Shown here: positions 1 through 18,172 of the stretch, piece after piece
Layout: the number at the start of each line of letters is the position of its first letter
Numbering within the stretch: the stretch's first letter is position 1
Assembly (NCBI GenBank): GCA_937138345.1
Contig: CAKZOW010000036.1
Span: 1-20,301, forward strand
Direction: 5' to 3'
DNA from: an uncultured archaeon
GTDB lineage: Archaea; Nanobdellota; Nanobdellia; Woesearchaeales; UBA583
Length of the DNA: 20,301 nt
Translations under genes and position numbers: made by a program
Notes under the pieces: generated by a model
What the model saw: the letters and a program-made list of their open reading frames with translations, nothing else
What the model was told of the DNA's origin: nothing
The model's database searches: none

Positions 1-58
1 AGGCTTAACTTCTGTGTTCGAGACGGGAACAGGTGTAACCCTAAGCTATATGAACCTA
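1..58 (-). rRNA. 5S ribosomal RNA, partial (5' ~55 nt; the 3' part lies beyond the left edge)
   Basis: The reverse complement of 1-58 reads ..GGTTCATATAGCTTAGGGTTACACCTGTTCCCGTCTCGAACACAGAAGTTAAGCCT. This matches the conserved 5' half of archaeal 5S rRNA (..CACACC..G.TC.C...TCGAAC.CAGAAGTTAAGCC..). The exact 5' end is estimated only. Confidence 0.75.
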
Positions 59-81
59 TAAATATAATAAACTAGAAACCC

Positions 82-162: not shown

Positions 163-600
163 ATGACACAGAAAAAAGATAAAATTCAGGCAATTGTATA
201 TAGAAAAAATTCCCAAAGTATTGAATACTTAGCACTTAGAAGAACAAAAGAAAAAGGAAATATCTGGCAACCAGTAACTGGTAATAGAGATCCACAAGAT
301 ACAACTATCTTAGAATGTCTTAAAAGAGAATTAGAAGAAGAAATAGGTATTAAAAACATGTTAAAAATAGAAGAAATACACCAATTTACTTACAAAGGGT
401 CTGGGTCTAAAAAAGGTATCGAGTTTAATGAAATAGTTTTTGGCGTAGAAATTGAAACATCACAAAAAATTATTTTACAAAGTGAACCCTACATCGAACA
501 TGAAGATTATCTATGGACAAGCTATGATGGAGCATTTGAACTCTTTGATTTTGTAGAACAAAAAGAAGCATTAAATAAGTTACATAAAAAATTATCTTAA
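163..600 (+). CDS. Nudix hydrolase (variant Nudix box)
   Basis: 145-aa ORF with the motif G-NRDPQ-D-TTILECLK-RELEEEIGI. The REUxEExGU core is intact. There is a D at the first Glu position and 8 spacer residues instead of 7. TATA-like TTAATATATAT at 134-144 lies ~24 nt upstream of the ATG. Confidence 0.75.
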   Translation: MTQKKDKIQAIVYRKNSQSIEYLALRRTKEKGNIWQPVTGNRDPQDTTILECLKRELEEEIGIKNMLKIEEIHQFTYKGSGSKKGIEFNEIVFGVEIETSQKIILQSEPYIEHEDYLWTSYDGAFELFDFVEQKEALNKLHKKLS

Positions 601-2685
601 AGAAACTCCAAAAGGAGTTGATTTAGCTCCTGTACAATGGGCTAATTCTCCATAAAGTTCTTTTGAACCCTCATAATATTCTAAAAACATATCATCATCT
701 AAATTACCAGCAATTGGAATTACTACATTAATTGAAGATGAAAATTCTACATCAGGAATCCAATTTTCTTCTTCTAAGAGTCCTATAAGTTCATCATCTT
801 TCATATAAAATGCAGAAACATTGTATGCAACATTATCCATTACTAAAAATTCAAGTGATGTAAGCTCTTCTGGCAATTCTTCTCCTTTTGAATAAAGGGC
901 CATTGATTGGAAGTCATACTGAGTATTTTCAATTTGAATAAATACATCAACATCTCTCTCATCTGAAATTGTAAAACAAGCAGCATTAGATACTACATCT
1001 TCTCTCCACTCTCTCCCTTCAAAAGAATCTTGATTAAATGAAAATGATTTTGTAGGTACCATCTGTAAACTCACTAAAAGAGGATTTTCACCATAATCTG
1101 ATAAATCTCTTTGTCCAGGGAATGTCTCAATTAAAGGCAGTTGGAAAAAGCCATCTTTTTTAGCAATAAATCTACCACCAAAACAATAAGGGACATTACC
1201 TGAATAAACTGGATATCCTACTTCAGTTTCTTGATTTGAAACTCTAAATACTTGCTGTTTTGTCTCCCCTAAATCACAGGTAAGACCCAAACATTTAAAG
1301 GAAATATTTACATTTGAAAGATATTGGTCTTCAAATGGAGCATTAATATTCTCAACACTAACATCAACGGGAAACTCATATGTTTCTTCTTGACAATAAG
1401 ATGACTCAGTTAAAGTTGGAATTTGATCTTGAGCTATAATTAATGTTGAAGTACTCTCTTTTGGTTCATTTTGTTCAACAGAAACTCTTAGAGGAAATTG
1501 AAAAAAGTCTTGACTCTCTCCTGAGACATCTTTTAGATTAATCATTAAATCATAATCAAGTGTGTAAGAATGAGCAAAAATTTGAATACATCCAAAATTA
1601 AATCTTCCAATACCAGTATCTACTCCTTGTTCCATAGATCTAACTATTTCTCCCTCTGATGGACTAATCTCAAATTCCCTATAAGGATTATATCTTGAAT
1701 AACCACCAACAAAACTCTCAACTGCAGGATTTAAAACATTCACTTCATAATCTCTAAAACTAGGTTTTGTATTTAATAACTCGTATGAATAAAAATTTCT
1801 AAAATAAGCTTCATTTGGAGAATCAACACCTAAGTTGCTCTCAAACCTATAATCAATTGGAGCAGTTCCCTCAAATTCTAAATATCTGAAATTATTATTA
1901 TTTAATTGAGCTAAAGTATCTCTTAAATCTGATTTTAACCAAATCCTTGGTGTACATGAAAATTCAATTCCCTGTGATGGCATTGAAGTAGTTCTATCTG
2001 CATAATTGGAAGCTGAGAAAATTTGATCTAATGTTAAATCTTCAAAAAGATAAGTTTCCTCTTCAAGATTATAAATCTCAATTGCAAGCTCATACAAATC
2101 ACCTAACTTAGAATCTCTCTCAACTACAAATTCATTTAATGAATTTTTTAACTCACCATTAATTTGTTTATATTCTAAAGGTAAAAAAGCCTGAGTTGAT
2201 ACTGTCTCATAATCTATATCTGTAAATACTTCAAACTCGTCATAATTTACATCAATTTGATAAGCATCACTTAATGTTGTAATAGCTAAATTAATACATC
2301 CTTGTGAATCTTGTTTTACATATTGATTTAATTCATTTTCCATACTAAATACTGTTGGATACTGATCATCTTCAACATCCCAATTAGGTAATTTAAATGC
2401 ACTATCACTCTCCCCTAATTGAAGATAATCATCCCTAAATCTAATATAAGAACTAGTATTAATCACACCACCTTGAGATTGAAGATAAAAAATACCTCTT
2501 CCCATACTCTGATCAATACAATACTCAATTGATTCTTTAATTTGTCCATCAGCCCTATCTTGAGGAGAATAAAACAATTCAACATCAGAGGTGTAAAGCA
2601 CAAAAGCACCAATAATTACAATAACTAAAGAAATTAAAATAAATATTGTTGTTTGAGCTTTGATATTACTATAATTTATTGACAT
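592..2685 (-). CDS. Large (697 aa) secreted/surface protein with prepilin-like (class III) signal peptide; function unknown
   Basis: The ORF track gives 592-2730. I prefer the ATG at 2685 (MSINYSNIKAQTTIFILISLVIVIIGAF..) because GGAGGT lies 6 nt upstream and the longer form would overlap the preceding gene by 55 nt. The N-terminus has a basic n-region, KA|Q, then ~20 hydrophobic residues. The rest is hydrophilic and acidic with 10 Cys. I recognise no catalytic motif. Confidence 0.6.
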   Translation of the reverse strand: MSINYSNIKAQTTIFILISLVIVIIGAFVLYTSDVELFYSPQDRADGQIKESIEYCIDQSMGRGIFYLQSQGGVINTSSYIRFRDDYLQLGESDSAFKLPNWDVEDDQYPTVFSMENELNQYVKQDSQGCINLAITTLSDAYQIDVNYDEFEVFTDIDYETVSTQAFLPLEYKQINGELKNSLNEFVVERDSKLGDLYELAIEIYNLEEETYLFEDLTLDQIFSASNYADRTTSMPSQGIEFSCTPRIWLKSDLRDTLAQLNNNNFRYLEFEGTAPIDYRFESNLGVDSPNEAYFRNFYSYELLNTKPSFRDYEVNVLNPAVESFVGGYSRYNPYREFEISPSEGEIVRSMEQGVDTGIGRFNFGCIQIFAHSYTLDYDLMINLKDVSGESQDFFQFPLRVSVEQNEPKESTSTLIIAQDQIPTLTESSYCQEETYEFPVDVSVENINAPFEDQYLSNVNISFKCLGLTCDLGETKQQVFRVSNQETEVGYPVYSGNVPYCFGGRFIAKKDGFFQLPLIETFPGQRDLSDYGENPLLVSLQMVPTKSFSFNQDSFEGREWREDVVSNAACFTISDERDVDVFIQIENTQYDFQSMALYSKGEELPEELTSLEFLVMDNVAYNVSAFYMKDDELIGLLEEENWIPDVEFSSSINVVIPIAGNLDDDMFLEYYEGSKELYGELAHCTGAKSTPFGVSLR

Positions 2686-3080
2686 TTTGGAACCTCCGCA
2701 GTACCTACATATTGTGTTTGTGTAACACATGCATATAGCTCACCATCTTCTCCTTTAACATGTGGAACTATTTTATATGTGGAATCTTTTTCAAATTCAA
2801 CTTCTTCTGATGATGAACTTAAAATAACATTTGTCACTGAATCTATCTCTGAATTTACTTCATAATACATATTGATACTTCCATCATTTGAAAGTGTTAA
2901 TCTAATATTTTCTTGTCTTGTCTCACAATTTGGAATTACTCTCATACTAACATCTGAGCAAAACTCATGCCTATCTGAGTATGTTACATTAAATATTCCA
3001 AATAAAAGTAAACTTACTAAAAAGGAAAAAGAAATAACTACAATTAATGAAGATCCTAGAGCTTTTGAACCTATATTCAT
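2676..3080 (-). CDS. Small (134 aa) membrane-anchored/secreted protein, possible pilin-like subunit
   Basis: The ORF-track start at 3092 is TTG. The first ATG at 3080 gives MNIGSKALGSSLIVVISFSFLVSLLLFGIF.., with a short n-region, KA|L and a hydrophobic stretch. The remainder has 4 Cys. The stop overlaps the next gene's start by 10 nt. Confidence 0.5.
   Translation of the reverse strand: MNIGSKALGSSLIVVISFSFLVSLLLFGIFNVTYSDRHEFCSDVSMRVIPNCETRQENIRLTLSNDGSINMYYEVNSEIDSVTNVILSSSSEEVEFEKDSTYKIVPHVKGEDGELYACVTQTQYVGTAEVPKCQ
2692..2697 (-). promoter_or_regulatory. Shine-Dalgarno-like GGAGGT for the 697-aa protein
   Basis: Plus-strand ACCTCC is GGAGGT on the minus strand, 6 nt upstream of the ATG at 2685 and inside the 3' end of the preceding gene. 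This fits translational coupling. Confidence 0.5.
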
Positions 3081-3101
3081 ACAAATATTCAAAAAAAATA
3101 C

Positions 3102-3110
3102 TTTATAAAA
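3102..3110 (-). promoter_or_regulatory. TATA box (TTTTATAAA on minus), possible internal promoter for the 134-aa/697-aa gene pair
   Basis: Centred 26 nt upstream of the ATG at 3080, in the 73-nt gap after the 1007-aa gene. Confidence 0.35.
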
Positions 3111-3153
3111 TAATATAAAAACTAATTAGGAGTATAAAAATAAACTCTATAAT

Positions 3154-6100
3154 TTAACTACATCTCCCATAGAGATCCGGATAACTAGGAACTCCAATAG
3201 GACAACTTCCAACATATTCATAACAATTATAATTATAAGGGTCAGGATTATTGTCAGCACACTTACCATGTAAATTAAAAGTCTCAGTACTAATATAAGT
3301 TCTAGCAATAGGGTCAACACATGAAACATTAATATCTTTAAAAAAATGAAGACCCGGTCTATATTGTGAATCTAGCTGCTTATCACTACGCATTCTTGTC
3401 TGAGTACATACACCTCCTTGAATCATTGTTTGTTCTCTAGGATTCTCCCAAGTATTGTGGTTAATACTATGATCTGCTAATATACACTGGGAAGTATCAG
3501 GTGCACAAAATCCCTTTGAGATATATGTATTAGTGATATTCCAAGAAGTTACTGAAGAATAATCCCTAAAATCATCATTAACTGAACCACCATATCCTCT
3601 CCATTCATCATCACATAAAAATCTAATATTTGAGAATTCTGCAGAATCTGGAATTGTCTCCAGGCCACCTGAAGAATTCCATCCTGCAACTAATTGAAAC
3701 GTATCATCTTCATTTGGTTTAAATGTAGTCATAAAAGAATAATTTGAAACAACTCCAAATTGGCATGAAGAAGTTGACTGTGCAACATAAGAGAGTGAAA
3801 GTGTGAATGGATCTCTATCTGAGCCTACAAGACTATCATCAGAGTATACAATATTTTTTACAGGGCTTTGAAAAAAATCTAATTTAATTACTTCTCCTAG
3901 ATTCACAGTACTACCACTCCCAGTAATTGATTCAACATTATGCTGCCATCTTGGCAATAATTTGCAAGTCCCATAAACATCACCCTGATAAAGAGAAGTA
4001 ACATCTGTACCATATTTATCCCAAATATCAACTTCACTATAACCTACTAATTCGTTAGTATCTAAATCAAAAGTTCCTCCTGTATTTAGTAAAACACCAA
4101 AAAACATATTAAAGTTAAATGAACTATCTCTAGCAAATGTAGATGTTAGAGAAATAGTCTCTCTCTCATTGATATAATTTTTAGTAGAATGATCAAATAA
4201 TGTTTGAGTATCACAACATGAAAAACCACTTGAATCAATTTCAGGGCCCATACATTGAGTTGGATAAATTCTAATCTTTAATGGATCTCCTACAATATTT
4301 CCTGATAAATCTTTAATTTGTGCAGACACAGTATATGGTTGTGAGATAAATGAACTATCTGAAGGAGTAGCATATGATTGTAACACTTGTTCCTGAAGTA
4401 TTGGCTGATCCTCAGTAGGAAACAAACCTAAATCATCGCTCCATTCAACACTATAAAAATCTGGATCTTCAACACATGATTCTCTGACCTTAATTCTCCA
4501 ATTAGGCCTCTCTCCAATTCCATCATAGAGAGGGAAATAAGGTTTATAATCAGGTGTTAAAATATAAGTATAAGGTAACTTTCTAGAACCATCAACATCA
4601 AATCCATCAAAAATAGTCTGACTTGTACCAACTCCTCTAAAGTCAGTTGCAATAGGATAATATCCATAAGTTGTATCATCAGCACCCTCTGCATAAATAT
4701 CAAAGCAACTCCTTGCATCTTCATTATTAATATTTTCAATACTACCTGATAAAAATTTGATTTGATAAGTACTAAAAGACTCACCATCTGTTAGCGTAAA
4801 TTCATATGAAAAAAGCCCATCAGTATTTCCTAAAAAAGATAATGAACCATTAGCTTGAAGAGTAAACTCTGATCTTGATGTTATTTGAGACATTTCTTGA
4901 AAATTCAAAGAGTGTACATCAATTTGCTCAAAAGGATATGTAATATCTAAAAAATCTAAAGTAATTCGATCTCCTGGCGTAAATAAAATAGTACATGAAG
5001 TACCTTCTACTCTATAACAATAAGAAGCTTCAGAGAATTCTAAAAAAGGCGCATAGTTTTCATACAAAAAATGGAATTGTTGGGGAGTTCCTAAATACTG
5101 TGTTTGATAATCTTCAATGGTAAAAAGATATTTCTTATACTCAGGCTCATTTGAAATAATAGTTTTTGAAACTGAAATATCATCAATAAATCCAGAATTT
5201 GCTCTTGATAAATCAACAGGGTCTGTTAAATCTAGTGTTCTGTTTTGAACTTTTTCCATAATTAAATTTCTAGATGCCTTCAACAAATCAACATACCTAG
5301 TAGGAATTTCAATACTTGTTTCAAGTGAAGAAACTGCCACATTTCTCTCATCAAAAACTACCGGATAATAAAAAGTACCATACAGTGATTCCCTATTAAA
5401 ATCTAAATCAACATATACTGAGAGTTCTTTATTAATAATGATATAATTATTAAAATTTGTCTGTAATGAAAAATCAACAGAACTTGAAGAAAAATCTCCG
5501 ATATACTCACCGTTATCAATTCTAAGTGTACCCTCAAAAACCTGATCTCCTATTTCCAAAAATAATTCATTTCCAGTTTCCCCTTCAAACTCTTCTAAAA
5601 GAAGTTCTGATGAAGATAATTTTGAAATAACTTTTGTTGTAACTTGTTTTTTTTCCCTAATTAAGTCTAAGTTCTCATAAGATGAAAAATCAACACAATC
5701 AAAAATTGAATTTAAAATATATTCCTGAAATTGATTATGATATCCTGGCATAATCATACTTCCAGAAGGTAGAGTAGCATCTAGAGAAGTAATTGAAATA
5801 TGGCCTGAGGAAGATAGCTTTGTATATACTTGAACTTCGTCTGTATAAATCCTATAAGGGGATAACACTCCTTGTTGATAATCGTCAAAATATGCTCCAT
5901 ACCCATAAACCTGATCTCTTGCATTTTCATCATAAATCAATCCACCCCTAGCTGATGCTAAAAGCAGTGATTTTTCTACCGAATTTTCAAAGCAAAAGGT
6001 AATTTCTTCTCTAAAAGATTCAAAATTTGAACTCTGAGCTCCAGCTAAACTCTCTCCCGAATTAATTCGATTAATTTCTGAGTCTGAAGAAAAAGAGAAC

Positions 6101-6177
6101 AAAAATACAAACAAAACAATAATTATAATCATAATAATGATAAAAATACTTATTTGTGCTCTTTTTGCTAACTTCAT
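3154..6177 (-). CDS. Giant (1007 aa) secreted/surface protein with prepilin-like (class III) signal peptide and Cys-rich C-terminus; function unknown
   Basis: The ORF track gives 3154-6222. The ATG at 6177 (MKLAKRAQISIFIIIMIIIIVLFVF..) sits 1 nt after the stop (6179-6181) of the upstream gene. The N-terminus has RA|QISI followed by a long hydrophobic run. There are 20 Cys after the signal, 8 of them in the last ~120 aa (..GKCADNNPDPYNYNCYEYVGSCPIGVPSYPDLYGRCS). The N-terminal module resembles that of the 697-aa protein. Confidence 0.6.
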   Translation of the reverse strand: MKLAKRAQISIFIIIMIIIIVLFVFLFSFSSDSEINRINSGESLAGAQSSNFESFREEITFCFENSVEKSLLLASARGGLIYDENARDQVYGYGAYFDDYQQGVLSPYRIYTDEVQVYTKLSSSGHISITSLDATLPSGSMIMPGYHNQFQEYILNSIFDCVDFSSYENLDLIREKKQVTTKVISKLSSSELLLEEFEGETGNELFLEIGDQVFEGTLRIDNGEYIGDFSSSSVDFSLQTNFNNYIIINKELSVYVDLDFNRESLYGTFYYPVVFDERNVAVSSLETSIEIPTRYVDLLKASRNLIMEKVQNRTLDLTDPVDLSRANSGFIDDISVSKTIISNEPEYKKYLFTIEDYQTQYLGTPQQFHFLYENYAPFLEFSEASYCYRVEGTSCTILFTPGDRITLDFLDITYPFEQIDVHSLNFQEMSQITSRSEFTLQANGSLSFLGNTDGLFSYEFTLTDGESFSTYQIKFLSGSIENINNEDARSCFDIYAEGADDTTYGYYPIATDFRGVGTSQTIFDGFDVDGSRKLPYTYILTPDYKPYFPLYDGIGERPNWRIKVRESCVEDPDFYSVEWSDDLGLFPTEDQPILQEQVLQSYATPSDSSFISQPYTVSAQIKDLSGNIVGDPLKIRIYPTQCMGPEIDSSGFSCCDTQTLFDHSTKNYINERETISLTSTFARDSSFNFNMFFGVLLNTGGTFDLDTNELVGYSEVDIWDKYGTDVTSLYQGDVYGTCKLLPRWQHNVESITGSGSTVNLGEVIKLDFFQSPVKNIVYSDDSLVGSDRDPFTLSLSYVAQSTSSCQFGVVSNYSFMTTFKPNEDDTFQLVAGWNSSGGLETIPDSAEFSNIRFLCDDEWRGYGGSVNDDFRDYSSVTSWNITNTYISKGFCAPDTSQCILADHSINHNTWENPREQTMIQGGVCTQTRMRSDKQLDSQYRPGLHFFKDINVSCVDPIARTYISTETFNLHGKCADNNPDPYNYNCYEYVGSCPIGVPSYPDLYGRCS

Positions 6178-6178
6178 T

Positions 6179-6937
6179 TTACTTTTTTTTGAATGCAGGT
6201 TTAAATATAAAAAATAACACAACTACAAAAAGTACAAAAATTAAATAAGTAAGATAATGAGTTCCTTCACTTTCTCTAATTTCTACTCCAAAGTCATTTC
6301 TCTGGTCTGGAGAAATATTTTTTTTAATAGTATAGTTAATCTCAGTTGGAATTTTCTCAACATTCCATGCAATAAGAGGATTTGACTCTAAAATCTCAAA
6401 AGGTAACTCACTGATAATATATTGATCCTTATTTTCTTCATCTAAATAAGAAATAACTTCACCCGGGATATCTGAGAGAACTCTAACATGTTCCCCCTCA
6501 CCTTCAATAAATAACGTAATTAGAGTACCTTCATCAACTTCTTTAAACGAAAATGTTGAAGTAATACCTTCAAATTGAGAAAATTTTTGATTAGAAACAT
6601 AAACTATTGAATCTTCATACTCCAATATTCCAACAAAATTGTAATTACCATCCCCTTGTATTTCAATAGGACAAATAACCTTACCATAAATACCTTCAAT
6701 TGAATCAAAAACCTGAGTACAACTCTCATCAAGTAGAAGTTCATCATTGAGAAATGTCTGTATATAAAATTTTGATCCACTCTCAATGAGTCCATAATTA
6801 AAACCAAAAGCAACTTGGAGAGTATCTCCAGACTCAATTACATATAATGTTTCAACAGGTCCTTGTTCCTGAGCTACTAAAGAAAACAATAGTGAGAGAA
6901 AACATAAAACAAAAATACTAGTTTTTTTAAAATTCAT
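6179..6937 (-). CDS. Secreted protein (252 aa) with Sec-type signal peptide and C-terminal membrane anchor; function unknown
   Basis: The N-terminus is MNFKKTSIFVLCFLSLLFSLVAQ|EQG.. . The C-terminus is ..LTYLIFVLFVVVLFFIFKPAFKKK, a hydrophobic helix with a basic tail. The mature part has 2 Cys. It is the first gene of the co-directional cluster. Confidence 0.6.
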   Translation of the reverse strand: MNFKKTSIFVLCFLSLLFSLVAQEQGPVETLYVIESGDTLQVAFGFNYGLIESGSKFYIQTFLNDELLLDESCTQVFDSIEGIYGKVICPIEIQGDGNYNFVGILEYEDSIVYVSNQKFSQFEGITSTFSFKEVDEGTLITLFIEGEGEHVRVLSDIPGEVISYLDEENKDQYIISELPFEILESNPLIAWNVEKIPTEINYTIKKNISPDQRNDFGVEIRESEGTHYLTYLIFVLFVVVLFFIFKPAFKKK

Positions 6938-7181: not shown

Positions 7182-7640
7182 ATGACTGACAATTACAGAG
7201 AAAATGTTGCAGCCATTATTATCAACAAAGATAAAAAAGTCCTTATGTGCGAACATGTATGGATTGATAATGCGTGGCAATTACCTCAGGGAGGTACAGA
7301 AGAAGGTGAAGGTAAACAAGAAGCTTTACTAAGAGAACTAGAAGAAGAATTAGGTACTAAGAGTTTCAAAGTTTTAGGACAAATGGAAGAACCACTTAAG
7401 TATAAATTTCCTTACTATTTAAGAGAAAAATACCAATTTGATGGACAAATCCAAACATTTTTCCTACTTGAATTCACAGGAGATGATTCAGAAATTAGAT
7501 TTGACAATCAAGAAAAACCAGAGTTTAAAGCATTTGAGTGGGTAGATTATGAAGAGCCACCAATTAGAGTAATTTATTTCAAAAAATTATCTTATCTCAA
7601 AGCAATAAATTATTTCAAAGAGCAAGTTGATCAATTATAA
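7182..7640 (+). CDS. Nudix hydrolase, RppH/NudH-like
   Basis: Canonical Nudix box GGTEEGE-GKQEALL-RELEEELG. The N-terminal YRENVAAIIINKDKKVLMCEH..WQLPQGG resembles RppH/Ap4A-hydrolase-type Nudix proteins. Confidence 0.8.
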   Translation: MTDNYRENVAAIIINKDKKVLMCEHVWIDNAWQLPQGGTEEGEGKQEALLRELEEELGTKSFKVLGQMEEPLKYKFPYYLREKYQFDGQIQTFFLLEFTGDDSEIRFDNQEKPEFKAFEWVDYEEPPIRVIYFKKLSYLKAINYFKEQVDQL

Positions 7641-11676: not shown

Positions 11677-13848
11677 TCATCCATTGATGATACGTAATAT
11701 TTCATCACCATACTTTGCAATTTTACTCTCACCAAGTCCAGTAATTTGATACATCTCCCCTTTATTTTGTGGCATAACTTTTGCAAGACCTTCAATTGCA
11801 GAATTAGATAATATCATATAGGCAGGAATTCCTCCCATAGACTTTGCTTTCTCAATTCTCCATTCTTTAAGCATTGTAGCCAAAACACTAGAATTACCGG
11901 TAGAAAGAGAAGAACATTTAGGTTTAGCATAAGAGAAAAGAGAAGTATTTTGTTCCTTAACTTTTGCATACTTTAACATAAATGAATTAATAAATTTTGA
12001 TTTATTTCCCGTGTAAGTAATTACTAATTTTGATTTTGCTCTAGAAAGTGCAACATAAAACAATCTCAATTCCTCATCATTTTTATTGTAATTGTCTGAT
12101 TGTTTTACTAAATCAAATACAAAGTTATCTTGTACTTTATTTGGAAAAGATAAAGAATTACAAGAAACTAAATAAACTTCCTCAGCCTCCATTCCCTTAA
12201 TAGAGTGTATTGTAGCTAACGTAACACCTTTTAGTTCTTTTGAATCTCTCCCACTAGACTCGTCTGTTTTTATAGTATATTCAATTCCTTGTTGATCAAA
12301 TAAATCAGCATAAGATTCTAAAACTTTATTTGTTCTTGCAAGTACAAATATCTCCTCCTTTGGAGTATTTGAATGTTTAATTGCCTCTAAAACAAATAAT
12401 TTCTCAATTTTTTCACTTTGCTGTTCAAATAAAAATATTTTATCATCTTCTGGATTCTCACTAGACTTCCCAGCAATCAAATTTGGTAATTTCATCTCTT
12501 TTATAGAATGATTAAAAAAATCAACTATTTTTGGGTCAGATCTATAATTTTGTTTTAAAGAAATAACTTGAGTATCCTTAAACATGTTTGGAAAAGTTAA
12601 AATATATTCAATCTCAGAACCCCTCCAACCATAAATTGCCTGTCTTGGATCTCCTACTGCAAAAATATTTGGTGCATTAAGATGTTTAATCAAATCTAGT
12701 TGAGGTAGATTAATATCTTGAAATTCATCAACTAAAATATATTCAAATGACGGTAGAGTATGTTTAAAATGAGAAAATAAAACATTACAATCTAAAATTT
12801 GATCTGTAAAATCTCTTAAACTCTTCTCTTTTAATTCTTTATGTAAACAAGTTACTATTGTATGAATAACTCCTGCAACTCTTTTTTTAGAAGGGTTTTT
12901 TTCTAAAGTATGAAACTCAGTAATAGATTCTACCTTATTTTTAAAATAATCTAAAATTGCAAAAATATCTCTAATAAATAGGAAGAATAATTCATCATTT
13001 GATCTCTCCCTTAATTGTTTTCTTGTAAAATAAATATCTTTAATATGATCAAAAAAGATACCTTGTTTTTGCATAATTGATCTAACAAGTGCAATTTTAT
13101 CCTTAAATGTAACAACCCTTGAGGGTTTTGAGTAAATTAATGAACCGTGTTTTTTTAATTGTTTTTCAGCAAATGAGTTAAAAGTCTCAACATAAACTGA
13201 AGTAATACCTAGCGATGCTAGACGTTTTGCCATTTCTTCTTTAGCTTTTTTAGTAAAAGTAATTGCTAAAATTTTTTCAGATTTAACTCCTCTAAATTTA
13301 GTTAAAAATTCAATTCTTTTTGTAAGAACAGTTGTTTTTCCAGAACCTGCTCCAGCTACACATAAAATACTTTGTTTGGGAGAAATAATTGCTTTTTTTT
13401 GTTCATCATTAAATGTATTTAAAAAAAAATCAAATTGTTTAAAGAGTACTCTATCTTCGGAAGTAATATCTTCACCATCAAGAAGATTAGTTTTGAGTTG
13501 AGAGTGATTTTTTGGTTTTTCTTCTTTGTATTCAAACTTTCTCTCAAATATTTCCTTAACTCCAAGACTTGTTCTTTGTAAGATTTTAAAATATCCTTTT
13601 TGAACTTCTTCTAAATATCCTGAAGAGATTAATTGATCAACTAAAGAAGAAATAAGAGGTACATCATGTTTAAATAAACATCCATAAGAATTATACTCAT
13701 CTAAATTATGTTTTTCAATTGTTGGGTTTAAATCTCCTTTAATATAAGTAATAAAAGTAACTTTTCCAAGCATAAATGGGAGGTCATCAAAAGCTTTCAA
13801 TAAAGGCAAATGTAGTTGAGAATAAGGATTTTCTTGAACTTGTTCCAT
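11677..13848 (-). CDS. SF1 UvrD/Rep-family DNA helicase with N-terminal RQC-like winged helix and C-terminal HRDC-like domain
   Basis: SF1 motifs are present: VAGAGSGKTTVLTKRI (Walker A/motif I), LVDEFQDIN (II), GDPRQAIYGWRG (III), QNYRS (IV), TIHSIKGMEAEEVYL (V) and YVALSRAKSKLVI (VI). The N-terminus, ..FMLGKVTFITYIKGD....I.KHNLDEYNSYGCL......LISSLVDQLISSGYLEE, follows the RecQ RQC pattern. The C-terminus, GIPAYMILSNSAIEGLAKVMPQNKGEMYQITGLGESKIAKYGDEIL, follows the HRDC pattern. Confidence 0.8.
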   Translation of the reverse strand: MEQVQENPYSQLHLPLLKAFDDLPFMLGKVTFITYIKGDLNPTIEKHNLDEYNSYGCLFKHDVPLISSLVDQLISSGYLEEVQKGYFKILQRTSLGVKEIFERKFEYKEEKPKNHSQLKTNLLDGEDITSEDRVLFKQFDFFLNTFNDEQKKAIISPKQSILCVAGAGSGKTTVLTKRIEFLTKFRGVKSEKILAITFTKKAKEEMAKRLASLGITSVYVETFNSFAEKQLKKHGSLIYSKPSRVVTFKDKIALVRSIMQKQGIFFDHIKDIYFTRKQLRERSNDELFFLFIRDIFAILDYFKNKVESITEFHTLEKNPSKKRVAGVIHTIVTCLHKELKEKSLRDFTDQILDCNVLFSHFKHTLPSFEYILVDEFQDINLPQLDLIKHLNAPNIFAVGDPRQAIYGWRGSEIEYILTFPNMFKDTQVISLKQNYRSDPKIVDFFNHSIKEMKLPNLIAGKSSENPEDDKIFLFEQQSEKIEKLFVLEAIKHSNTPKEEIFVLARTNKVLESYADLFDQQGIEYTIKTDESSGRDSKELKGVTLATIHSIKGMEAEEVYLVSCNSLSFPNKVQDNFVFDLVKQSDNYNKNDEELRLFYVALSRAKSKLVITYTGNKSKFINSFMLKYAKVKEQNTSLFSYAKPKCSSLSTGNSSVLATMLKEWRIEKAKSMGGIPAYMILSNSAIEGLAKVMPQNKGEMYQITGLGESKIAKYGDEILRIING

Positions 13849-13903: not shown

Positions 13904-14890
13904 TTAACAAGAATTCTTATTATGAAGCAACTGCATATACAAAATATAAGATATCGTTAAGATAATTACTTTAATTAATGTTGATATATCAATTAAATAA
14001 ACAACTACTAAAATTATAGTAAACAAAATCATCCTAACTAAAGGAAATGATAGAAAACATTTTGGAGTATTTGCATAATAAATAAGACCATAAGAAATAA
14101 AAAATAACAAAGGACCTACTAAAAGAAAGTGTGAAAATACATCCTTATCAATTGCAATTTTAAATCCAGTTGCTAAATAAAGTAAACTAATATAAAATAT
14201 CATATGAGTATATGAATAATAATGGCCACTACCAAAAACTTTACCGTGAATTTTCTCTTCTAGAAAAGGAAAATACTTCCTAGCAATAAACATAACAATC
14301 CCCACTCCTAAAATAAAATAAATACTATTGTTAAGAGTTATTTGAGTTGTATTGAAAATAGTACTTGTCGATAAAATCATCTCCCCTAGCATAATAATAG
14401 TTAAAAGACCTAATCTCTCAGGTAGATGAGTAGAACTCACCGGAATTGATCTTAATTTATTTCTAAAAAAAAGAGGTGCCAACAAATCAATTAATGATGC
14501 AACAATCCAAAATATCAATACGTAGTCTGTGTATCCTGAGATTATCCATAAAAGAGAAGAAAATAAAAGGACAGATGAGAGGGATGAGAATCCATTCCCG
14601 GAAGTAATTTCTGAATATCTTTTCATATAACAAAGCGATAGTACAAACCTTGAAATACCATAAATTAATCCAAAATAGTAGATAATATACTCTTCAAAAC
14701 CAAGTAAAACAGTAATAAATAGAATGGAGAAAATTTGAGTTATTGTTAATACATGATAGAGAGTATCAATTTTTGGAAATCTAGTTGTAAACATAACATG
14801 TCCCATCCAATTGAGGAGAATTGGAATAAATAACAACATAAAAAATAATGTTGAATCAAAAGAATATGTTTCTTTAAGTAAAATAGATAA
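13904..14890 (-). CDS. LtrA-family (low temperature requirement A-like) polytopic membrane protein, N-terminally truncated at the composition break
   Basis: This is the AT-rich C-terminal 328 aa of the 1002-aa ORF. ..LLFIPILLNWMGHVMFTTRFPKIDTLYHVLTITQIFSILF.. fits the LtrA pattern (..WW.W....W...RF..DD...R.L...QM..), and about 8 further TM segments follow. The expected first ~50 aa of the family (ELFFDLVFV-type helix) are missing. An internal ATG at 14839 could give a shorter product. The boundary is approximate (+/-30 nt). Confidence 0.5.
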   Translation of the reverse strand, partial: LSILLKETYSFDSTLFFMLLFIPILLNWMGHVMFTTRFPKIDTLYHVLTITQIFSILFITVLLGFEEYIIYYFGLIYGISRFVLSLCYMKRYSEITSGNGFSSLSSVLLFSSLLWIISGYTDYVLIFWIVASLIDLLAPLFFRNKLRSIPVSSTHLPERLGLLTIIMLGEMILSTSTIFNTTQITLNNSIYFILGVGIVMFIARKYFPFLEEKIHGKVFGSGHYYSYTHMIFYISLLYLATGFKIAIDKDVFSHFLLVGPLLFFISYGLIYYANTPKCFLSFPLVRMILFTIILVVVYLIDISTLIKVIILTISYILYMQLLHNKNSC

Positions 14891-16912
14891 TCCCCCAGTC
14901 TTGTGACCAAAAATCACATCAGATTTGCCGTCTCCAGTAATATCAGACCCGGCTAAGCTTACATTGCTTGTATATAAAAAGATACTATCAACCGTACCCG
15001 CACTTGTTCGACTACTTGGGTCTATATCCGTAACCATGTATAGGTACCCCGAACCTGTACCTACAAACAAATAATCTTTTCCATTTTGCTGGTCAATAGC
15101 CCCGTTGGAGTCAAGACTTATCATGAATGGGGACAAATACCCGTTACGATATTTTTCGGAGTAAACCCCGGCAAACCCATTGGTTCTTGAGGTGGTGATT
15201 GATGGGTCAAAATCAGGAGCAGATGTAGTACCTACGTTTTCATATAGCACTAGTTCAGGGGTTTGACTGCCAACAATCAAATCCAGTTTACCGTCTTTAT
15301 TCACATCGAATAATGCTGGACGGATTTCATTACCAAAAACACGATTAGAAAAAGGTGTTGTTTTAAGGCTGAAAAGGCAGGAATCGGATGGGTTAGAAGC
15401 CTGATTTTCATAATAGTAAAGTTTTCCCGACTCGGTTCCAATTAGCAAATCGATATCTCCATCATTGTCTAGGTCTCCGGCGGCAGGGCATAGGCCTGTA
15501 TCAAAAGCACTGGGAAGGAGCAAGTAGTCTCTTGTAATTAGAGTGTACGCAGGGTCGGTTTTTGTTCCGGTATTCTTGTAATAAGCAATTCTACTTTCAT
15601 AAGTTCCTATTCTTGAAAAGACTCCACGATTCCCAACAAGTAAGTCATTCAATGAATCACCATCTACATCAATTAGAAGAGGGTGTGCGTTGGTTCCCAA
15701 ATCTATCATATCCTTAAATAGGAAATCATTGCCTTGATACTGAAGTGAAGCGTTATTATTTGACCCGTTATTTTTATACAGCTGGGCGCCATTAATATTA
15801 TCGAAACCAGCTTCCGCATTTGGAGAGGCAATCAGGTCTTTTACCCCATCATTATCCACATCAACATAATAGGCTGCTGGAAATGTTTGAACGTCAACTG
15901 ATGTATTATTTCTTGGGTAGGCCGTGTCTTGACTGGTTAATCTGGCATCCGCCAAGGTTCCATTATTATAGGCCATTAGCAGGTTATTGTAGGAAATATC
16001 TCCCAAAATTAAATCAGGTAAATCGTTACCATCCATATCCTGAATTAGTATGGTTGAACCTTCGTGCCGGCTTCCTCTTCCATTAGATATTGGGTTGCTT
16101 TTGTTGAGAGGAATAGCCCCGCCTTTACAACTACCGAAATAGAGTTGGAATGAAAAAGCATCTTCAATAAAATGTCCCCAGCAAGTGGATTCTAAGTCAA
16201 ATATTAGGCTATCATTATTGCCGTTGTTTTCTTGGCTTAGGTTTTTGTAATAGGTTATTGAGTTCGCCCCGCTTCCAAAAGCTAGAATATCCATGTCACC
16301 GTCACCATCAATGTCAGTTATTCCTGGTATGTCAGTAAACCCATTATATACGTCGGTGTATATAAACCCACCTTGTGGGGGGTAATATTTGTACGTAATA
16401 AAATCTACATACTGGCCTGCCTTAAAAGGACTGTTGTATTTAATTGGTAAGAAGGAAAAATCATTTGGCGCTGGGCCAGTCGATGTATTTTTAAACACTT
16501 TAATATCTCCAAAATTGGGAACAGCTGAAAAAATATCTTTTTTCCCATCTCCATCAAAGTCACGTAATAGTGCGAAGTCGGTCATTTTTGGGAAACCAAT
16601 TTCATAGTCGAAACTGTAGTCGTAACCAATTGTGTCTTTTTTTCCCTGATTGATGAAAGTGCGGACGCATTGTCCGTCTCTATCAAAAATAAAAAGGTCA
16701 TCTATTCCGTCTCCGTTTAAATCAATGTCAGAAAATTGTGGGGTGTTCAAACCACCAACCCAAGGAAAGGCATATTCAGTACCAAATGCTTTTACAGATA
16801 CTGAGTCGTACCTACCATACGTTTTTAGGTCAACATTCTGAGCGTAAGAAGATGTTAGTAGTCCAAATAGAACGAGAGTTGTTGCGGGTAAAATAAGTTG
16901 TAGTTGTTTCAT
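14891..16912 (-). CDS. FG-GAP/VCBS repeat (integrin-alpha-like beta-propeller) secreted protein, C-terminally truncated at the composition break
   Basis: The N-terminal Sec signal is MKQLQLILPATTLVLFGLLTSSYA|QN. At least 9 Ca-binding repeat cores of the D-x-[DN]-x-D-G-x-x-D type are present: DLNGDGIDDL, DFDGDGKKDI, DIDGDGDMDI, DVDNDGVKDL, DVDGDSLNDL, DLDNDGDIDL, DVNKDGKLDL, DITGDGKSDV and others. GC is ~40% and codons contain CpG. No C-terminal sorting domain is left. Confidence 0.7.
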
Positions 16913-16916
16913 ATTC

Positions 16917-16924
16917 CAAATATA
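16917..16924 (-). promoter_or_regulatory. Bacteroidota-type -7 promoter motif TAnnTTTG (TATATTTG)
   Basis: Plus-strand CAAATATA is TATATTTG on minus, ending 4 nt before the ATG of the FG-GAP gene. That is very close and would imply a leaderless or near-leaderless mRNA. Confidence 0.3.
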
Positions 16925-17007
16925 ACGTTACGTAATAAGATTTGGTTTACCCCGTTTGCCAATCTACAATTTCAATTTTTTAATTGAACCTCACGTTCGA
17001 TAAAATA

Positions 17008-17015
17008 TACTTTTG
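17008..17015 (+). promoter_or_regulatory. Bacteroidota-type -7 promoter motif TAnnTTTG (TACTTTTG)
   Basis: Ends 9 nt upstream of the ATG at 17025. Confidence 0.4.
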
Positions 17016-17024
17016 CGTCCAGTT

Positions 17025-17756
17025 ATGAAAAAACGCCTATTACTTCCTTTGAGTACACTTTTACTGGCTTCAGTATCATTGTTTGCACAAGAAACTGAAA
17101 AACAGCCCGAAAAAAAAGAGGAGAAAAAAGTTAATAGTGATTCCAAGGTTGCTAATCGTCCAATTAAAAGGGATAATTTTTTAATTGATATTAATTACGC
17201 TGGTGTGGTTAACGCGCCTACTGGTGTCAATTTTAGTTTTGGGTATGGAAACGACATTCAAATTTTCTACGACCATCAATTTAAAGCTAAGGTGTTAAGT
17301 GGTGCTATTGGAATTGGATATTCCCATGCAAAGTATTTCAACAATGGTTACACTACGAATGTTGATACCGCAACTGGACTTGAATATGCGTCTTTTGCCC
17401 CAATAAAAGCTGATTCATCCTACAAAAGGAATTCATATACAACTAATTACTTCGATGTACCCGCTGAGTTGAGGTTCCGGTCAAAACCTAATGATAAAGG
17501 CCATAGCTGGAAGGTGTCTGTTGGTTTCAAGGCGGGCTTCAGACTAGGTTCTTACAGCACAACAAGAACAGAAGAAGGTAGATATAGCAATTTCATTCAG
17601 CCATTACTTACGCAAACTCGATACGGAATTACCACACGATTGGGTTACGGTAGAATTGGTTTAGTCGGTTATTACAGTCTTACACGATTGTTTGAGGCTG
17701 AAAAGGGACATGAGATATTGCCCTTCTCAATAGGGTTCACCATTTCACCCTTCTAG
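17025..17756 (+). CDS. Small outer-membrane beta-barrel protein (Bacteroidota OMP_b-brl/PorT-like family)
   Basis: I use the ATG at 17025 (MKKRLLLPLSTLLLASVSLFA|QE, a Sec signal) rather than the TTG at 17013. The protein has alternating aromatic/hydrophobic beta-strand patterning, is rich in G/Y/S/T, and ends in a terminal Phe (..GFTISPF) typical of OMPs. Confidence 0.6.
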   Translation: MKKRLLLPLSTLLLASVSLFAQETEKQPEKKEEKKVNSDSKVANRPIKRDNFLIDINYAGVVNAPTGVNFSFGYGNDIQIFYDHQFKAKVLSGAIGIGYSHAKYFNNGYTTNVDTATGLEYASFAPIKADSSYKRNSYTTNYFDVPAELRFRSKPNDKGHSWKVSVGFKAGFRLGSYSTTRTEEGRYSNFIQPLLTQTRYGITTRLGYGRIGLVGYYSLTRLFEAEKGHEILPFSIGFTISPF

Positions 17757-17757
17757 G

Positions 17758-18153: not shown

Positions 18154-18172
18154 AACAATAATGTATATAGCT

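What the first reader, a model, noticed from the sequence alone, without database searches (positions are those of the whole stretch)
592..6937. Four-gene cluster of secreted/cell-surface proteins, two of them giant and carrying type IV prepilin-like (class III) signal peptides
Seen in sequence:
- Four co-directional minus-strand genes (252, 1007, 134 and 697 aa) fill 6.3 kb.
- The 1007-aa ATG (6177) lies 1 nt after the stop of the 252-aa gene.
- The 697-aa ATG (2685) overlaps the 134-aa gene's stop by 10 nt and has GGAGGT 6 nt upstream.
- The giant proteins start MKLAKRA|QISIFIIIMIIIIVLFVF and MSINYSNIKA|QTTIFILISLVIVIIGAF. That is a short basic n-region, [KR]-A-Q, then ~20 hydrophobic residues.
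- This fits the archaeal FlaFind-type pattern as I recall it: [KRDE][GA][ALIFQMVED][ILMVTAS]x3.
- The 134-aa protein has a looser version (MNIGSKA|LGSS..).
- The 252-aa protein has an ordinary Sec signal plus a C-terminal TM anchor.
- None of the four shows a catalytic or nucleotide-binding motif I recognise.

Inference: this is a surface module, either a pilus-associated adhesin set or bindosome-like anchored proteins. In a compact AT-rich archaeon with a DPANN-like gene set and density, such proteins are prime candidates for host-cell contact.

No assembly ATPase, platform protein or prepilin peptidase lies in the window, so the assembly machinery, if any, is elsewhere.
Basis: partly seen in the sequence, partly recalled or inferred. 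Interest (0 to 1): 0.75.

Follow-up and report, generated by a model that had tools for sequence, protein, structure and literature searches.

The report
Pilin-like surface protein cluster, Nanoarchaeota
This is a real, conserved four-gene cluster of a tiny symbiotic-type archaeon (Nanoarchaeota/Woesearchaeota) that encodes cell-surface proteins, three with the N-terminal signal typical of type IV pilus subunits; they belong to very large protein families with no known function that are good but unproven candidates for cell-to-cell contact.

Summary

The prepilin-like reading is strongly supported by conservation.
- In 61/61 full-length relatives of the 697-aa protein the N-terminus is K-K-[G/A/S]|Q-[V/I]-[S/T]-I-F. 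Q(+1) and F(+5) are invariant, and n-regions range from 4 to 32 residues.
- All ~900-1000-aa relatives carry the same motif. It matches the sites listed for Methanococcus EppA substrates (RAQI, KGQV).

The two large proteins share a homologous N-terminal module (hhalign 97.7%).

The cluster is two translationally coupled pairs (252+1007 and 134+697). It is conserved across Nanoarchaeota/Woesearchaeota MAGs.

The 697-aa family has more than 7,000 cluster representatives and no Pfam, NCBIfam or PDB match. Its AlphaFold model (pLDDT 80) shows an N-terminal helix, two alpha/beta domains and two beta-sandwiches. Foldseek finds only generic Ig-like matches.

No pilus ATPase, platform protein or peptidase lies near the cluster in any locus examined.

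Best reading: modular minor-pilin or tip-adhesin-like subunits of a type IV filament whose assembly machinery is encoded elsewhere (confidence about 0.5). A non-filament envelope complex is the main rival. It is a new variant of a known kind.

The parts
6179..6937 (-). Gene 1: 252-aa type I membrane protein. It has a Sec-type signal peptide (about residues 1-22, nt 6872-6937), an ectodomain of about 200 aa with 2 invariant Cys and the motif IPKxVI...DPLIAWN, a C-terminal TM segment (nt ~6200-6256) and a KKK tail.
   Evidence: ORF and sequence. Hydropathy shows segments at residues 3-24 and 231-249. The 12-member family alignment A4 has invariant C73, C89 and W191. No Pfam, PDB or PHROG match.
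3154..6177 (-). Gene 2: 1007-aa class III signal-peptide protein. The leader MKLAKRA spans nt 6157-6177, the predicted cleavage is before Q8, and the hydrophobic helix spans nt 6091-6156. The ectodomain is acidic and has 20 Cys.
   Evidence: Relatives of 772-1010 aa share 23-26% identity over the full length and the same K-[GAS]|Q-[IVL]-[ST]-[IV]-F start. The gene starts 1 nt after the stop of gene 1; across loci this gap is -11 to +4 nt in 10 of 12. The AF2 model is unusable (pLDDT 28.6).
5248..6165 (-). N-terminal module of the 1007-aa protein (residues ~5-310). It is homologous to residues ~7-208 of the 697-aa protein, with an insertion of roughly 100-140 residues and a shared invariant Cys pair (C62/C161 corresponding to C56/C130).
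   Evidence: hhalign of A1 against A2 gives probability 97.7%, E 1.6e-12. A local HMM of the 697-family N-terminus hits every ~900-1000-aa protein in two pieces.
3081..3153 (-). 73-nt AT-rich spacer between gene 2 and gene 3 with TATA-like stretches (TTTTTATATT, TTTTATAAAG). It is a possible internal promoter for the second gene pair.
   Evidence: Read from the sequence, so the promoter is an inference only. The reading fits the 134+697-type pair standing alone, without the first pair, in loci L012, L013 and L020.
2676..3080 (-). Gene 3: 134-aa small pilin-like protein. The leader MNIGSKA spans nt 3060-3080, followed by one TM helix (nt ~2988-3059) and a domain of about 95 aa with 4 conserved Cys that looks beta-rich (not modelled).
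   Evidence: The 15-member alignment A3 shows K-K-[AGS]|[ILV]-x-[ST]-[YH], invariant C41 and C118, and near-invariant C52 and C133. The signal region aligns in register with that of the large proteins. The UpsA hit (E 0.016) occurs in only 1 of 15 members and is treated as noise.
2692..2697 (-). GGAGGT Shine-Dalgarno-like site 6 nt upstream of ATG 2685, inside the 3' end of gene 3.
   Evidence: Sequence.
592..2685 (-). Gene 4: 697-aa class III signal-peptide protein.
- Leader MSINYSNIKA, nt 2656-2685, with predicted cleavage before Q11.
- Hydrophobic helix, nt 2593-2655.
- Shared N-terminal alpha/beta module, nt ~2062-2667.
- Most conserved middle alpha/beta domain, residues 233-425, nt 1411-1989.
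- Two more variable beta-sandwich domains, residues 426-697, nt 595-1410.
   Evidence: The family alignment A1 (63 sequences) has 8 invariant Cys, with Q11 and F15 in 61/61 full-length members. The profile search finds 7143 cluster representatives at E<=1e-3 and 998 at E<=1e-30. The AF2 model has pLDDT 79.9. Foldseek against PDB and BFVD finds only Ig-like tandem hits with TM<=0.15.

Best explanation
The cluster encodes a conserved cell-surface module of Nanoarchaeota/Woesearchaeota. It is built from type IV pilin-like proteins and organised as two translationally coupled pairs.

**Pair 1** is a 252-aa Sec-exported protein with a C-terminal membrane anchor, plus the 1007-aa protein. **Pair 2** is a 134-aa small pilin-like protein plus the 697-aa protein.

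**Proposed mechanism (inferred)**
1. The three class III precursors insert into the membrane through their single N-terminal hydrophobic helix.
2. A prepilin peptidase encoded elsewhere cuts after [KR]-[G/A/S]. The invariant +1 Gln of the two large proteins points to an EppA-like, Gln-requiring specificity. The small protein has a PibD/FlaK-like site.
3. The mature proteins use the exposed hydrophobic helix to join a type IV filament, or a short pseudopilus, assembled by an ATPase and platform protein encoded elsewhere.
4. There they act as modular minor pilins or a tip complex. The shared N-terminal module and the small partner form the assembly core, and the more variable C-terminal beta-sandwich domains point outward for adhesion or cell-cell contact.

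**Shown here:** gene structure, motif conservation, paralogy of the N-terminal modules, synteny and coupling, and the domain layout of the 697-aa protein.

**Inferred only:** cleavage, filament incorporation, the pairwise complexes, and an adhesive function.
For: 1. **Motif conservation.**
   - In the 697-aa family, position -1 is G/A/S in 59/61, +1 is Q in 61/61, +3 is S/T in 59/61 and +5 is F in 61/61.
   - The leader length ranges from 4 to 32 residues, so the motif is fixed relative to the hydrophobic helix and not to the N-terminus.
   - 115 of the 134 more distant cluster representatives examined fit [KRNST][GAS]Q.[STAG].[FLIVM].
   - Every ~900-1000-aa paralogue in the held loci has the motif.
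2. **Match to known substrates.** The sites equal those listed for proven EppA substrates (RAQI, KGQV, KGQL, KGQI). EppA requires the +1 Gln (PMC4371748). The 134-aa family (KKA|I/L-x-S/T) resembles the PibD sites KAIS, KGIS and RALS in the same table.
3. **Topology.** Each class III candidate has one N-terminal TM-like segment and an acidic ectodomain with conserved Cys (4-20 Cys).
4. **Shared module.** The N-terminal module is shared at hhalign probability 97.7% and by local HMM hits.
5. **Coupling.** Start/stop gaps are -13 to +14 nt in 13 of 14 loci for pair 2, and -11 to +4 nt in 10 of 12 loci for pair 1.
6. **Pilin-type neighbours.** In relatives, canonical K[GA]|ISPV pilin-type genes sit next to the cluster in L004, L007 and L010. 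A Flagellin_arch-type gene follows it in L004.
7. **Structure.** The AF2 model of the 697-aa protein has helix 8-32 and helix 41-70 leading into a globular head, then Ig-like domains. Its only structural matches are tandem-Ig adhesins and pilins.
8. **Conservation gradient.** The C-terminal beta-sandwiches are the least conserved part.
9. **Precedent.**
   - Archaeal class III proteins range from under 150 to over 1000 aa (PMC4371748).
   - Large Cys-rich proteins accompany archaeal type IV pilus loci (PMC4858521).
   - S. sanguinis has a small pilin that stabilises a large modular pilin in a tip complex (PMC9934059).
Against: - No prepilin peptidase, secretion ATPase or TadC/ArlJ-like platform gene lies within about 10 kb of the cluster in any Pfam-annotated locus. 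A crude motif scan of 397 kb of held loci also found none. I could not check their presence in the same genome.
- No pilin family model matches (Pilin_N, Flagellin_arch-type, Class III signal peptide/DUF361, UpsA).
- Foldseek returned no type IV pilin for the N-terminal module.
- Position +5 is Phe. The review describes Glu there for EppA substrates.
- The predicted N-terminal helix is broken at residues 33-40, a low-confidence stretch.
- The family is strongly conserved, most of all in its middle domain. This fits a machine component or enzyme better than a host-specific adhesin.
- The C-terminal anchor of the 252-aa protein has no clear counterpart in pilus tip complexes.
Confidence: 0.5

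Rival explanations
1. This is a membrane-anchored envelope complex, not a filament. The proteins, cleaved or not, stay tethered in the cytoplasmic membrane by their N-terminal helices (and by the C-terminal helix of the 252-aa protein). They form a constitutive surface layer or a short bindosome-like or S-layer-like scaffold of the cell envelope.
For: - The cluster sits in conserved core-genome synteny (PUA, Nudix, cluster, Nudix).
- The family is phylum-wide with many invariant residues.
- No assembly machinery is adjacent in any locus.
- Pairing a C-terminally anchored small protein with a large partner recalls the S-layer-like plus large-protein pairs noted in archaeal type IV pilus loci (PMC4858521).
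- Sulfolobus binding proteins use class III signals without forming long pili (10.64898/2026.04.22.720090).
Against: - No S-layer, substrate-binding or ABC transporter signature is present.
- A strictly conserved peptidase-type site, including invariant +1 Gln, is not needed for simple anchoring.
- S-layer proteins are usually poorly conserved in sequence.
- Canonical pilin-type genes adjoin the cluster in some relatives.
Confidence: 0.25
2. These are uncleaved type II signal-anchor proteins. The basic residues follow the positive-inside rule, and the Q-x-S-x-F motif serves helix packing or oligomerisation in the membrane. Prepilin peptidases play no part.
For: No peptidase was found in the window or in any held locus. 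No pilin HMM matches. The 134-aa protein fails the FlaFind-style regex.
Against: - A small residue at -1 in 59/61 and invariant Gln at +1, with leaders of 4 to 32 residues, is the signature of a cleavage site and not of an anchor.
- The motif is identical to experimentally processed EppA sites.
- The same register is kept in three different families of one cluster.
Confidence: 0.1
3. The 697-aa protein is a surface-displayed enzyme or ligand-binding receptor. It could, for example, act on host envelope polymers. Its conserved middle domain would be the active part, and the class III helix would only deliver it to the surface.
For: The middle domain (residues 233-425) is the most conserved part, with a peak at 361-380. 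Near-invariant polar residues there include R336, Q368, H372, D377, D379, D386, Q396, R400 and N406.
Against: No enzyme family or fold matches by Pfam, NCBIfam, PDB sequence profiles or Foldseek. No recognisable catalytic motif is present. This reading is compatible with the best explanation rather than exclusive of it.
Confidence: 0.1

Closest known systems
EppA-processed Epd pilins of Methanococcus maripaludis (archaeal type IV filament 'system 1')
   Same: Both have a short basic leader ending in [KR]-[GA] followed by an obligatory +1 Gln and a hydrophobic helix of about 20 residues. The sites RAQI and KGQV/I/L are the same (PMC4371748). Several pilin-like proteins are encoded together. System 1 is reported in some DPANN archaea (10.64898/2026.04.22.720090).
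   Different: - Epd pilins are small, whereas these proteins are 697 and 1007 aa.
- Position +5 is invariant Phe, not Glu.
- There is no sequence or HMM similarity beyond the signal.
- The genes are not next to an ATPase, a platform protein or EppA.
- An EppA-type peptidase has not been shown in these genomes.
Modular minor pilins and tip complex of Streptococcus sanguinis type IV pili (PilA-PilC, PilB)
   Same: A small pilin partners with and stabilises a large 'modular' pilin that carries grafted adhesive modules, and the complex sits at the pilus tip (PMC9934059). Here a 134-aa pilin-like gene is translationally coupled to the 697-aa gene in nearly all loci, and a second large pilin-like protein is present.
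   Different: The S. sanguinis system is bacterial. There is no homology. The modules here are unknown folds plus Ig-like domains, not lectin or vWA modules. The interaction and the tip location are inferred only.
Large Cys-rich adhesin-like or S-layer-like proteins of archaeal type IV pilus loci (e.g. subclade 4G of Pyrobaculum/Thermoproteus; PilY-like DUF2341 proteins of clade 1)
   Same: One large protein with a C-terminal TM domain sits beside one large signal-peptide protein and several small pilins, and nearly all carry conserved cysteines (PMC4858521). The survey also reports large Ig-fold-rich adhesin-like proteins in several subsystems.
   Different: Those genes lie inside loci that also hold the ATPase and platform genes, and this cluster does not. 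There is no DUF2341/PilY match. Here the C-terminally anchored protein is small (252 aa) and the large proteins themselves carry the class III signal.
Sulfolobus bindosome (class III signal-peptide sugar-binding proteins)
   Same: Large non-pilin ectodomains are delivered by a class III signal peptide and encoded away from the assembly genes.
   Different: There is no substrate-binding-protein domain and no neighbouring ABC transporter.

Membership tests
Archaeal class III signal-peptide (type IV pilin-like) proteins | A short basic leader ends in [KR]-[G/A(/S)] and is directly followed by a hydrophobic stretch of about 20 residues at the extreme N-terminus. | tested here: met
   The two large proteins match a FlaFind-style regex (written from memory) and have one N-terminal TM-like segment each. 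The motif is conserved in 59-61 of 61 relatives, in 115 of 134 distant representatives and in all paralogues. The 134-aa family has K-K-[AGS]|[ILV]-x-[ST]-[YH] but fails the strict regex.
Archaeal class III signal-peptide (type IV pilin-like) proteins | The leader is cleaved by a prepilin peptidase (PibD/FlaK/EppA, Peptidase_A24) encoded in the same genome. | not testable with these tools
   Only 20 kb of the genome is available. No candidate was found in the window or in 397 kb of related loci by a crude motif scan. The rest of the complete genome CP060218.1 could not be read.
Archaeal class III signal-peptide (type IV pilin-like) proteins | Type IV pilin fold: a long N-terminal alpha-helix packed against a beta-sheet head. 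| tested here: inconclusive
   The AF2 model of the 697-aa protein has helices 8-32 and 41-70 leading into an alpha/beta head. Foldseek returns no type IV pilin among the top PDB hits. The 134-aa and 1007-aa proteins could not be modelled.
Archaeal class III signal-peptide (type IV pilin-like) proteins | The genes are linked to, or the proteins assembled by, a type IV filament ATPase plus a TadC/ArlJ-like platform protein. | tested here: not met
   No T2SSE, T2SSF or Peptidase_A24 gene lies within about 10 kb in any Pfam-annotated locus or by motif scan. Linkage is not obligatory for pilins, so this weakens the case without excluding it.
EppA-type substrates (Epd pilins; Pfam 'Class III signal peptide' DUF361, motif QxSxExxxL as recalled from memory) | Invariant Gln at +1. 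| tested here: met
   Q is present in 61/61 members of the 697-aa family and in all ~900-1000-aa paralogues. It is not met by the 134-aa protein, whose +1 is L/I/V.
EppA-type substrates (Epd pilins; Pfam 'Class III signal peptide' DUF361, motif QxSxExxxL as recalled from memory) | Glu at +5, and a match to the family HMM. | tested here: not met
   Position +5 is Phe in 61/61. No Pfam hit of any kind was found.
Known pilin/archaellin families (Pfam Pilin_N, Flagellin_arch-type; NCBIfam UpsA) | A significant match to the profile HMM. | tested here: not met
   Nothing scores above the cut-offs. UpsA gives E 0.016 (15 bits against a cut-off of 130) in 1 of 15 members only.
Bindosome substrate-binding proteins | A periplasmic-type substrate-binding domain and a neighbouring ABC transporter. 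| tested here: not met
   No SBP domain was found. The neighbours are Nudix, PUA, a tRNA-splicing endonuclease and ribosomal proteins.
S-layer proteins (SlaA/SlaB-like canopy plus stalk) | A Sec signal peptide on both proteins, a stalk protein with a C-terminal TM anchor, and S-layer domain matches. | tested here: not met
   The 252-aa protein has the Sec signal plus C-terminal TM topology. The large proteins carry class III signals, and no S-layer family or structure matches.
PilY1-like tip adhesins | A DUF2341 or PilY1 beta-propeller domain. | tested here: not met
   No Pfam hit and no such Foldseek match.

The most novel reading that the evidence does not exclude
The two coupled pairs form a previously unrecognised surface organelle common to Nanoarchaeota/Woesearchaeota. 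It would be a heteromeric cap or stalk built from pilin-like subunits with their own N-terminal module and a Gln(+1)/Phe(+5) processing signature. In this reading it is the conserved apparatus through which these host-dependent archaea attach to, or bridge to, partner cells, and it depends on a dedicated Gln-specific prepilin peptidase.
Probability: 0.2. Interest if true: 0.8.

Novelty: new variant of a known kind. Interest (0 to 1): 0.55.

Why it matters
**Open question.** How DPANN archaea recognise and hold on to their partners is unresolved, and Woesearchaeota have no cultivated model. Makarova et al. (PMC4858521) noted that for one of the ATPase clades found in nanoarchaea the matching pilins could not be identified.

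**What this cluster offers**
- Three pilin-like families and one anchored partner, conserved across the phylum.
- More than 7,000 cluster representatives for one family alone.
- No annotation in Pfam, NCBIfam or the PDB.
- A sharp, testable processing motif.

**What it makes testable**
- N-terminal proteomics for (pyro)Gln-x-S/T-I-F.
- Co-occurrence with EppA-like peptidases.
- Multimer modelling.
- Labelling of the proteins in enrichment cultures.

**If the pilus link fails**, these remain some of the most widespread uncharacterised surface proteins of the phylum, and a family definition would improve the annotation of thousands of MAG proteins.

Tried and rejected
- **Homologue search for the 1007-aa family.** Word-indexed searches returned only two proteins, both with the single sequence and with a 6-sequence profile. 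The size of that family is therefore unknown beyond the roughly 12 copies found by synteny.
- **AF2 of the 1007-aa protein.** With the only admissible alignment (3 sequences) the model had pLDDT 28.6. It was discarded and not fold-searched.
- **UpsA pilin lead for the 134-aa protein.** Rejected, because only 1 of 15 family members gives the weak hit.
- **Profile searches against PDB sequences.** The searches for the 697-, 1007- and 252-aa families found nothing meaningful. The 134-aa profile gave only chance-level hits.
- **Foldseek of the 697-aa model.** Searches against PDB and BFVD found only tandem Ig-like adhesin or receptor hits with TM<=0.15.
- **Viral or mobile origin.** There are no PHROG hits and no relatives in IMG/VR contigs.
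- **Repeats.** No tandem DNA repeats and no internal protein repeats were found.
- **Homology among the other families.** The 134- or 252-aa families show nothing in common with the large proteins beyond the signal region.
- **Neighbouring machinery.** A regex scan for secretion-ATPase Walker A and A24 peptidase motifs in all held loci found only the UvrD helicase of the window. The scan is crude, so this is weak negative evidence.
- **Literature.** Searches found no description of these families.

Full report
**1. Observation**

The window holds four co-directional minus-strand genes between 592 and 6937.
- The 252-aa gene ends with TAA at 6181-6179, and the next ATG is at 6177.
- The 134-aa gene ends at 2676 and overlaps the ATG at 2685 by 10 nt. 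GGAGGT sits at 2697-2692, 6 nt upstream of that ATG.
- The mechanical ORF list starts three of the ORFs further upstream (TTG 6222, TTG 3092, ATG 2730).
- Hydropathy shows exactly one N-terminal hydrophobic segment in the 1007-, 134- and 697-aa proteins. The 252-aa protein has a signal-like N-terminal segment plus a C-terminal TM segment followed by KKK.
- The ectodomains are acidic and contain Cys: 20, 4, 10 and 3 Cys respectively.
- The region is 94% and 91% identical in DNA to two independent MAG contigs, so it is not an assembly artefact. The right-hand quarter of the window is a different matter (section 9).

**2. Organism and context**

The closest proteins are annotated as coming from Nanoarchaeota or Woesearchaeota MAGs.

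The neighbouring genes are two Nudix hydrolases, a PUA protein, a tRNA-splicing endonuclease, L7Ae, S28e and L24e, and a UvrD-type helicase. The order PUA, membrane protein, Nudix, cluster recurs in relatives. The cluster therefore belongs to the vertically inherited core. It is not viral: there are no PHROG hits and no relatives in IMG/VR.

**3. The N-terminal signal**

I aligned 63 relatives of the 697-aa protein, which share 22-97% identity with it. In the 61 with complete N-termini:

| Position | Residue | Count |
|---|---|---|
| -2 | K | 47 |
| -1 | G/A/S | 59 |
| +1 | Q | 61 |
| +3 | S/T | 59 |
| +5 | F | 61 |

- The leader before the motif is 4 to 32 residues long. The motif is therefore fixed relative to the hydrophobic helix, as expected for a cleavage site.
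- A library-wide HMM search found 7143 cluster representatives at E<=1e-3 and 998 at E<=1e-30.
- Of the 134 new representatives among the best 150 hits, 115 fit [KRNST][GAS]Q.[STAG].[FLIVM]. Most of the rest are truncated or have Y/W at +5.
- Every ~770-1010-aa protein encoded at the position of the 1007-aa gene in related loci has the same start.
- The review PMC4371748 lists the sites of M. maripaludis EppA substrates as RAQI, KGQV, KGQL and KGQI. It states that EppA requires the +1 Gln. RAQI is exactly the 1007-aa site.
- The same review says EppA substrates carry Glu at +5. Here +5 is invariant Phe, so this is a distinct variant.
- The 134-aa family (15 members taken from loci) has K-K-[A/G/S] followed by [I/L/V]-x-[S/T]-[Y/H]. 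This resembles the PibD sites KAIS, KGIS and RALS in the same table, and it aligns in register with the large proteins' signal. It fails my strict FlaFind-style regex.

**4. Relationships among the four proteins**

- BLASTP between the two large proteins is insignificant.
- Profile-profile comparison gives 97.7% probability (E 1.6e-12) that residues ~7-208 of the 697-aa family match residues ~5-310 of the 1007-aa family.
- An HMM built only from the 697-family N-terminus hits every ~900-1000-aa paralogue in two pieces, which implies an insertion of roughly 100-140 residues. The C-terminal HMM hits only the 697 family.
- An invariant Cys pair is shared: C56/C130 in the 697-aa protein and C62/C161 in the 1007-aa protein.
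- The 134- and 252-aa families show no similarity to the large ones beyond the signal.

**5. Synteny**

- The order ~250-290 aa, ~770-1010 aa, ~126-134 aa, ~665-700 aa is kept in most loci, down to 32-38% identity of the last protein.
- The small gene and the ~675-aa gene are separated by -13 to +14 nt in 13 of 14 loci.
- The anchored gene and the ~950-aa gene are separated by -11 to +4 nt in 10 of 12 loci.
- The cluster is therefore two translationally coupled pairs, separated by a spacer of about 60-100 nt. In the window the spacer is 73 nt, AT-rich and TATA-like.
- The second pair occurs alone in three loci, including a complete Woesearchaeota genome (L012, L013, L020).
- In more distant Woesearchaeota, the ~615-670-aa protein is instead followed by an overlapping 1,700-1,900-aa Cys-rich giant with a Sec-type signal.
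- Canonical pilin-type genes (K[GA]|ISPV...) adjoin the cluster in L004, L007 and L010.
- No secretion ATPase, TadC-like platform or A24 peptidase is within about 10 kb anywhere.

**6. Structure**

The AlphaFold model of the 697-aa protein, built on 63 sequences, has mean pLDDT 79.9.
- Helix 8-32 is the hydrophobic segment.
- Residues 33-40 form a low-confidence break.
- Helix 41-70 leads into an alpha/beta module that runs to about residue 230.
- A second alpha/beta domain spans about 236-420.
- Two beta-sandwich domains span about 438-560 and 579-697.

Conservation is highest in the second domain (peak at residues 361-380) and lowest in the two beta-sandwiches.

Foldseek against PDB and BFVD gives only tandem Ig-like adhesins, receptors and sortase-type pilins, with TM-scores of 0.15 or less. 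No type IV pilin appears.

Sequence profiles of the 697-, 1007- and 252-aa families find nothing in the PDB, and the 134-aa profile gave only chance-level hits. Pfam, NCBIfam and PHROGs give nothing either. The 1007-aa model failed (pLDDT 28.6). The 134-aa family could not be submitted.

**7. Interpretation**

The class III nature of the three proteins is the best-supported element; I put it at about 0.8. The next step is inference by analogy: that they are extracted from the membrane and built into a type IV filament as modular minor pilins or a tip complex.

The analogies are these.
- Archaeal class III proteins range from under 150 to over 1000 aa (PMC4371748).
- Archaeal pilus loci often contain large Cys-rich adhesin-like proteins, together with a protein that has a C-terminal TM (PMC4858521; 10.64898/2026.04.22.720090).
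- In S. sanguinis a small pilin stabilises a large modular pilin in a tip complex (PMC9934059). This mirrors the conserved coupling of the 134- and 697-aa genes.

Several points count against a simple 'host adhesin'.
- The 697-aa family is strongly conserved across the phylum.
- No assembly genes are linked to the cluster.
- No pilin-fold match was found.

The main rival is a filament-independent envelope complex (0.25). Uncleaved signal anchors (0.1) fit the conserved -1/+1 positions poorly. A surface enzyme or receptor role for the conserved middle domain (0.1) is compatible with either architecture.

**8. Novelty**

Large class III signal-peptide proteins and pilus-associated adhesins are a known kind. 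The new elements are these.
- Very large families have no annotation.
- The Gln(+1)/Phe(+5) signature is distinct.
- A private N-terminal globular module is shared by two paralogous large proteins.
- The two-pair gene architecture is conserved across the phylum and detached from any assembly locus.

I found no paper describing them. I file this as a new variant of a known kind, with interest 0.55.

**9. Caveat on the window**

GC rises from about 0.27 to about 0.42 near position 14,900-14,960. One 1002-aa ORF spans that point. It fuses an FG-GAP repeat protein (residues 1 to ~660) to an LtrA membrane protein that begins at profile position 21 (residues 676-983).

The genes beyond it look bacterial: a GH3-family protein, a response regulator and an outer-membrane-like protein. 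The contig is probably chimeric there. The finding lies wholly in the archaeal part and is reproduced in other assemblies.

Noticed in passing
window 13904-16912 (-), junction about 14,900-14,960; window 15,000-20,301: One 1002-aa ORF fuses an FG-GAP repeat protein (residues 1 to ~660, GC ~0.42) in frame to an LtrA membrane protein that lacks its first ~20 profile positions (residues 676-983, GC ~0.27). The genes to the right look bacterial (GH3 family, response regulator, beta-barrel-like protein). This is probably a chimeric assembly join between an archaeal and a bacterial contig.
   Followed up: partly
window 1-61 (-): A partial 5S rRNA gene (Rfam RF00001, 40 bits, model positions 1-60 of 120) is cut by the window edge, next to the Nudix gene.
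   Followed up: partly
window 11677-13848 (-): The 723-aa UvrD/REP-type helicase also carries an N-terminal RQC domain and a C-terminal HRDC domain. These are accessory domains usually associated with RecQ helicases.
   Followed up: no
L004 6807-9548; L007 2280-5834, 12412-12798, 12893-14716, 21013-22038; L010 6337-6609: Genes with the canonical archaeal pilin start K-[GA]|I-S-P-V-V-A lie immediately beside the cluster in some relatives. Their sizes run from 128 aa to 1184 aa, and one has DUF7483. None is in the window. They are candidate major or minor pilins of the same system.
   Followed up: partly
L004 12014-13069 (also L014 11897-12952): A 351-aa ORF starts right after the ~670-aa gene in both loci. 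In L004 it starts 1 nt after the stop and has Yip1 plus Flagellin_arch-type Pfam hits. The L014 ORF was not annotated. No such gene is in the window.
   Followed up: no
L021 11991-17078; L022 11845-17481: In more distant Woesearchaeota, the ~615-670-aa class III protein is followed by an overlapping 1,695-1,878-aa protein with a Sec-type signal, 34-44 Cys and faint Big_13 hits. This giant takes the place of the window's arrangement.
   Followed up: partly
L008 1763-2522: In a 91%-identical MAG contig, the homologue of the 252-aa gene is broken. A 169-aa ORF ends at ...SYLDEEN, followed by a 250-nt gap before the next gene. It is either a frameshift or assembly error, or a pseudogene.
   Followed up: no
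L009, L010, L018, L019, L020 (record titles): Five MAG records titled 'uncultured Methanosarcinales archaeon' carry relatives of the 697-aa gene. Where flanks were examined, they show the same cluster order and Woesearchaeota-type neighbours (Nudix in L009; PUA and Nudix in L018 and L019). The taxonomic labels are probably wrong.
   Followed up: no
window 163-600 (+) and 7182-7640 (+): Two Nudix hydrolase genes bracket the cluster. The first overlaps the 3' end of the 697-aa gene by 9 nt in convergent orientation. A downstream Nudix gene is kept in L001, L003 and L008, and an upstream one in L001 and L008 (L003 ends before it).
   Followed up: no
window 2686-2730 (-): An in-frame upstream ATG at 2730 would add MCYTNTICRYCGGSK to the 697-aa protein. 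It is also present in L003 and L008. The wider family and the GGAGGT site support ATG 2685, so gene callers may over-extend this gene.
   Followed up: partly
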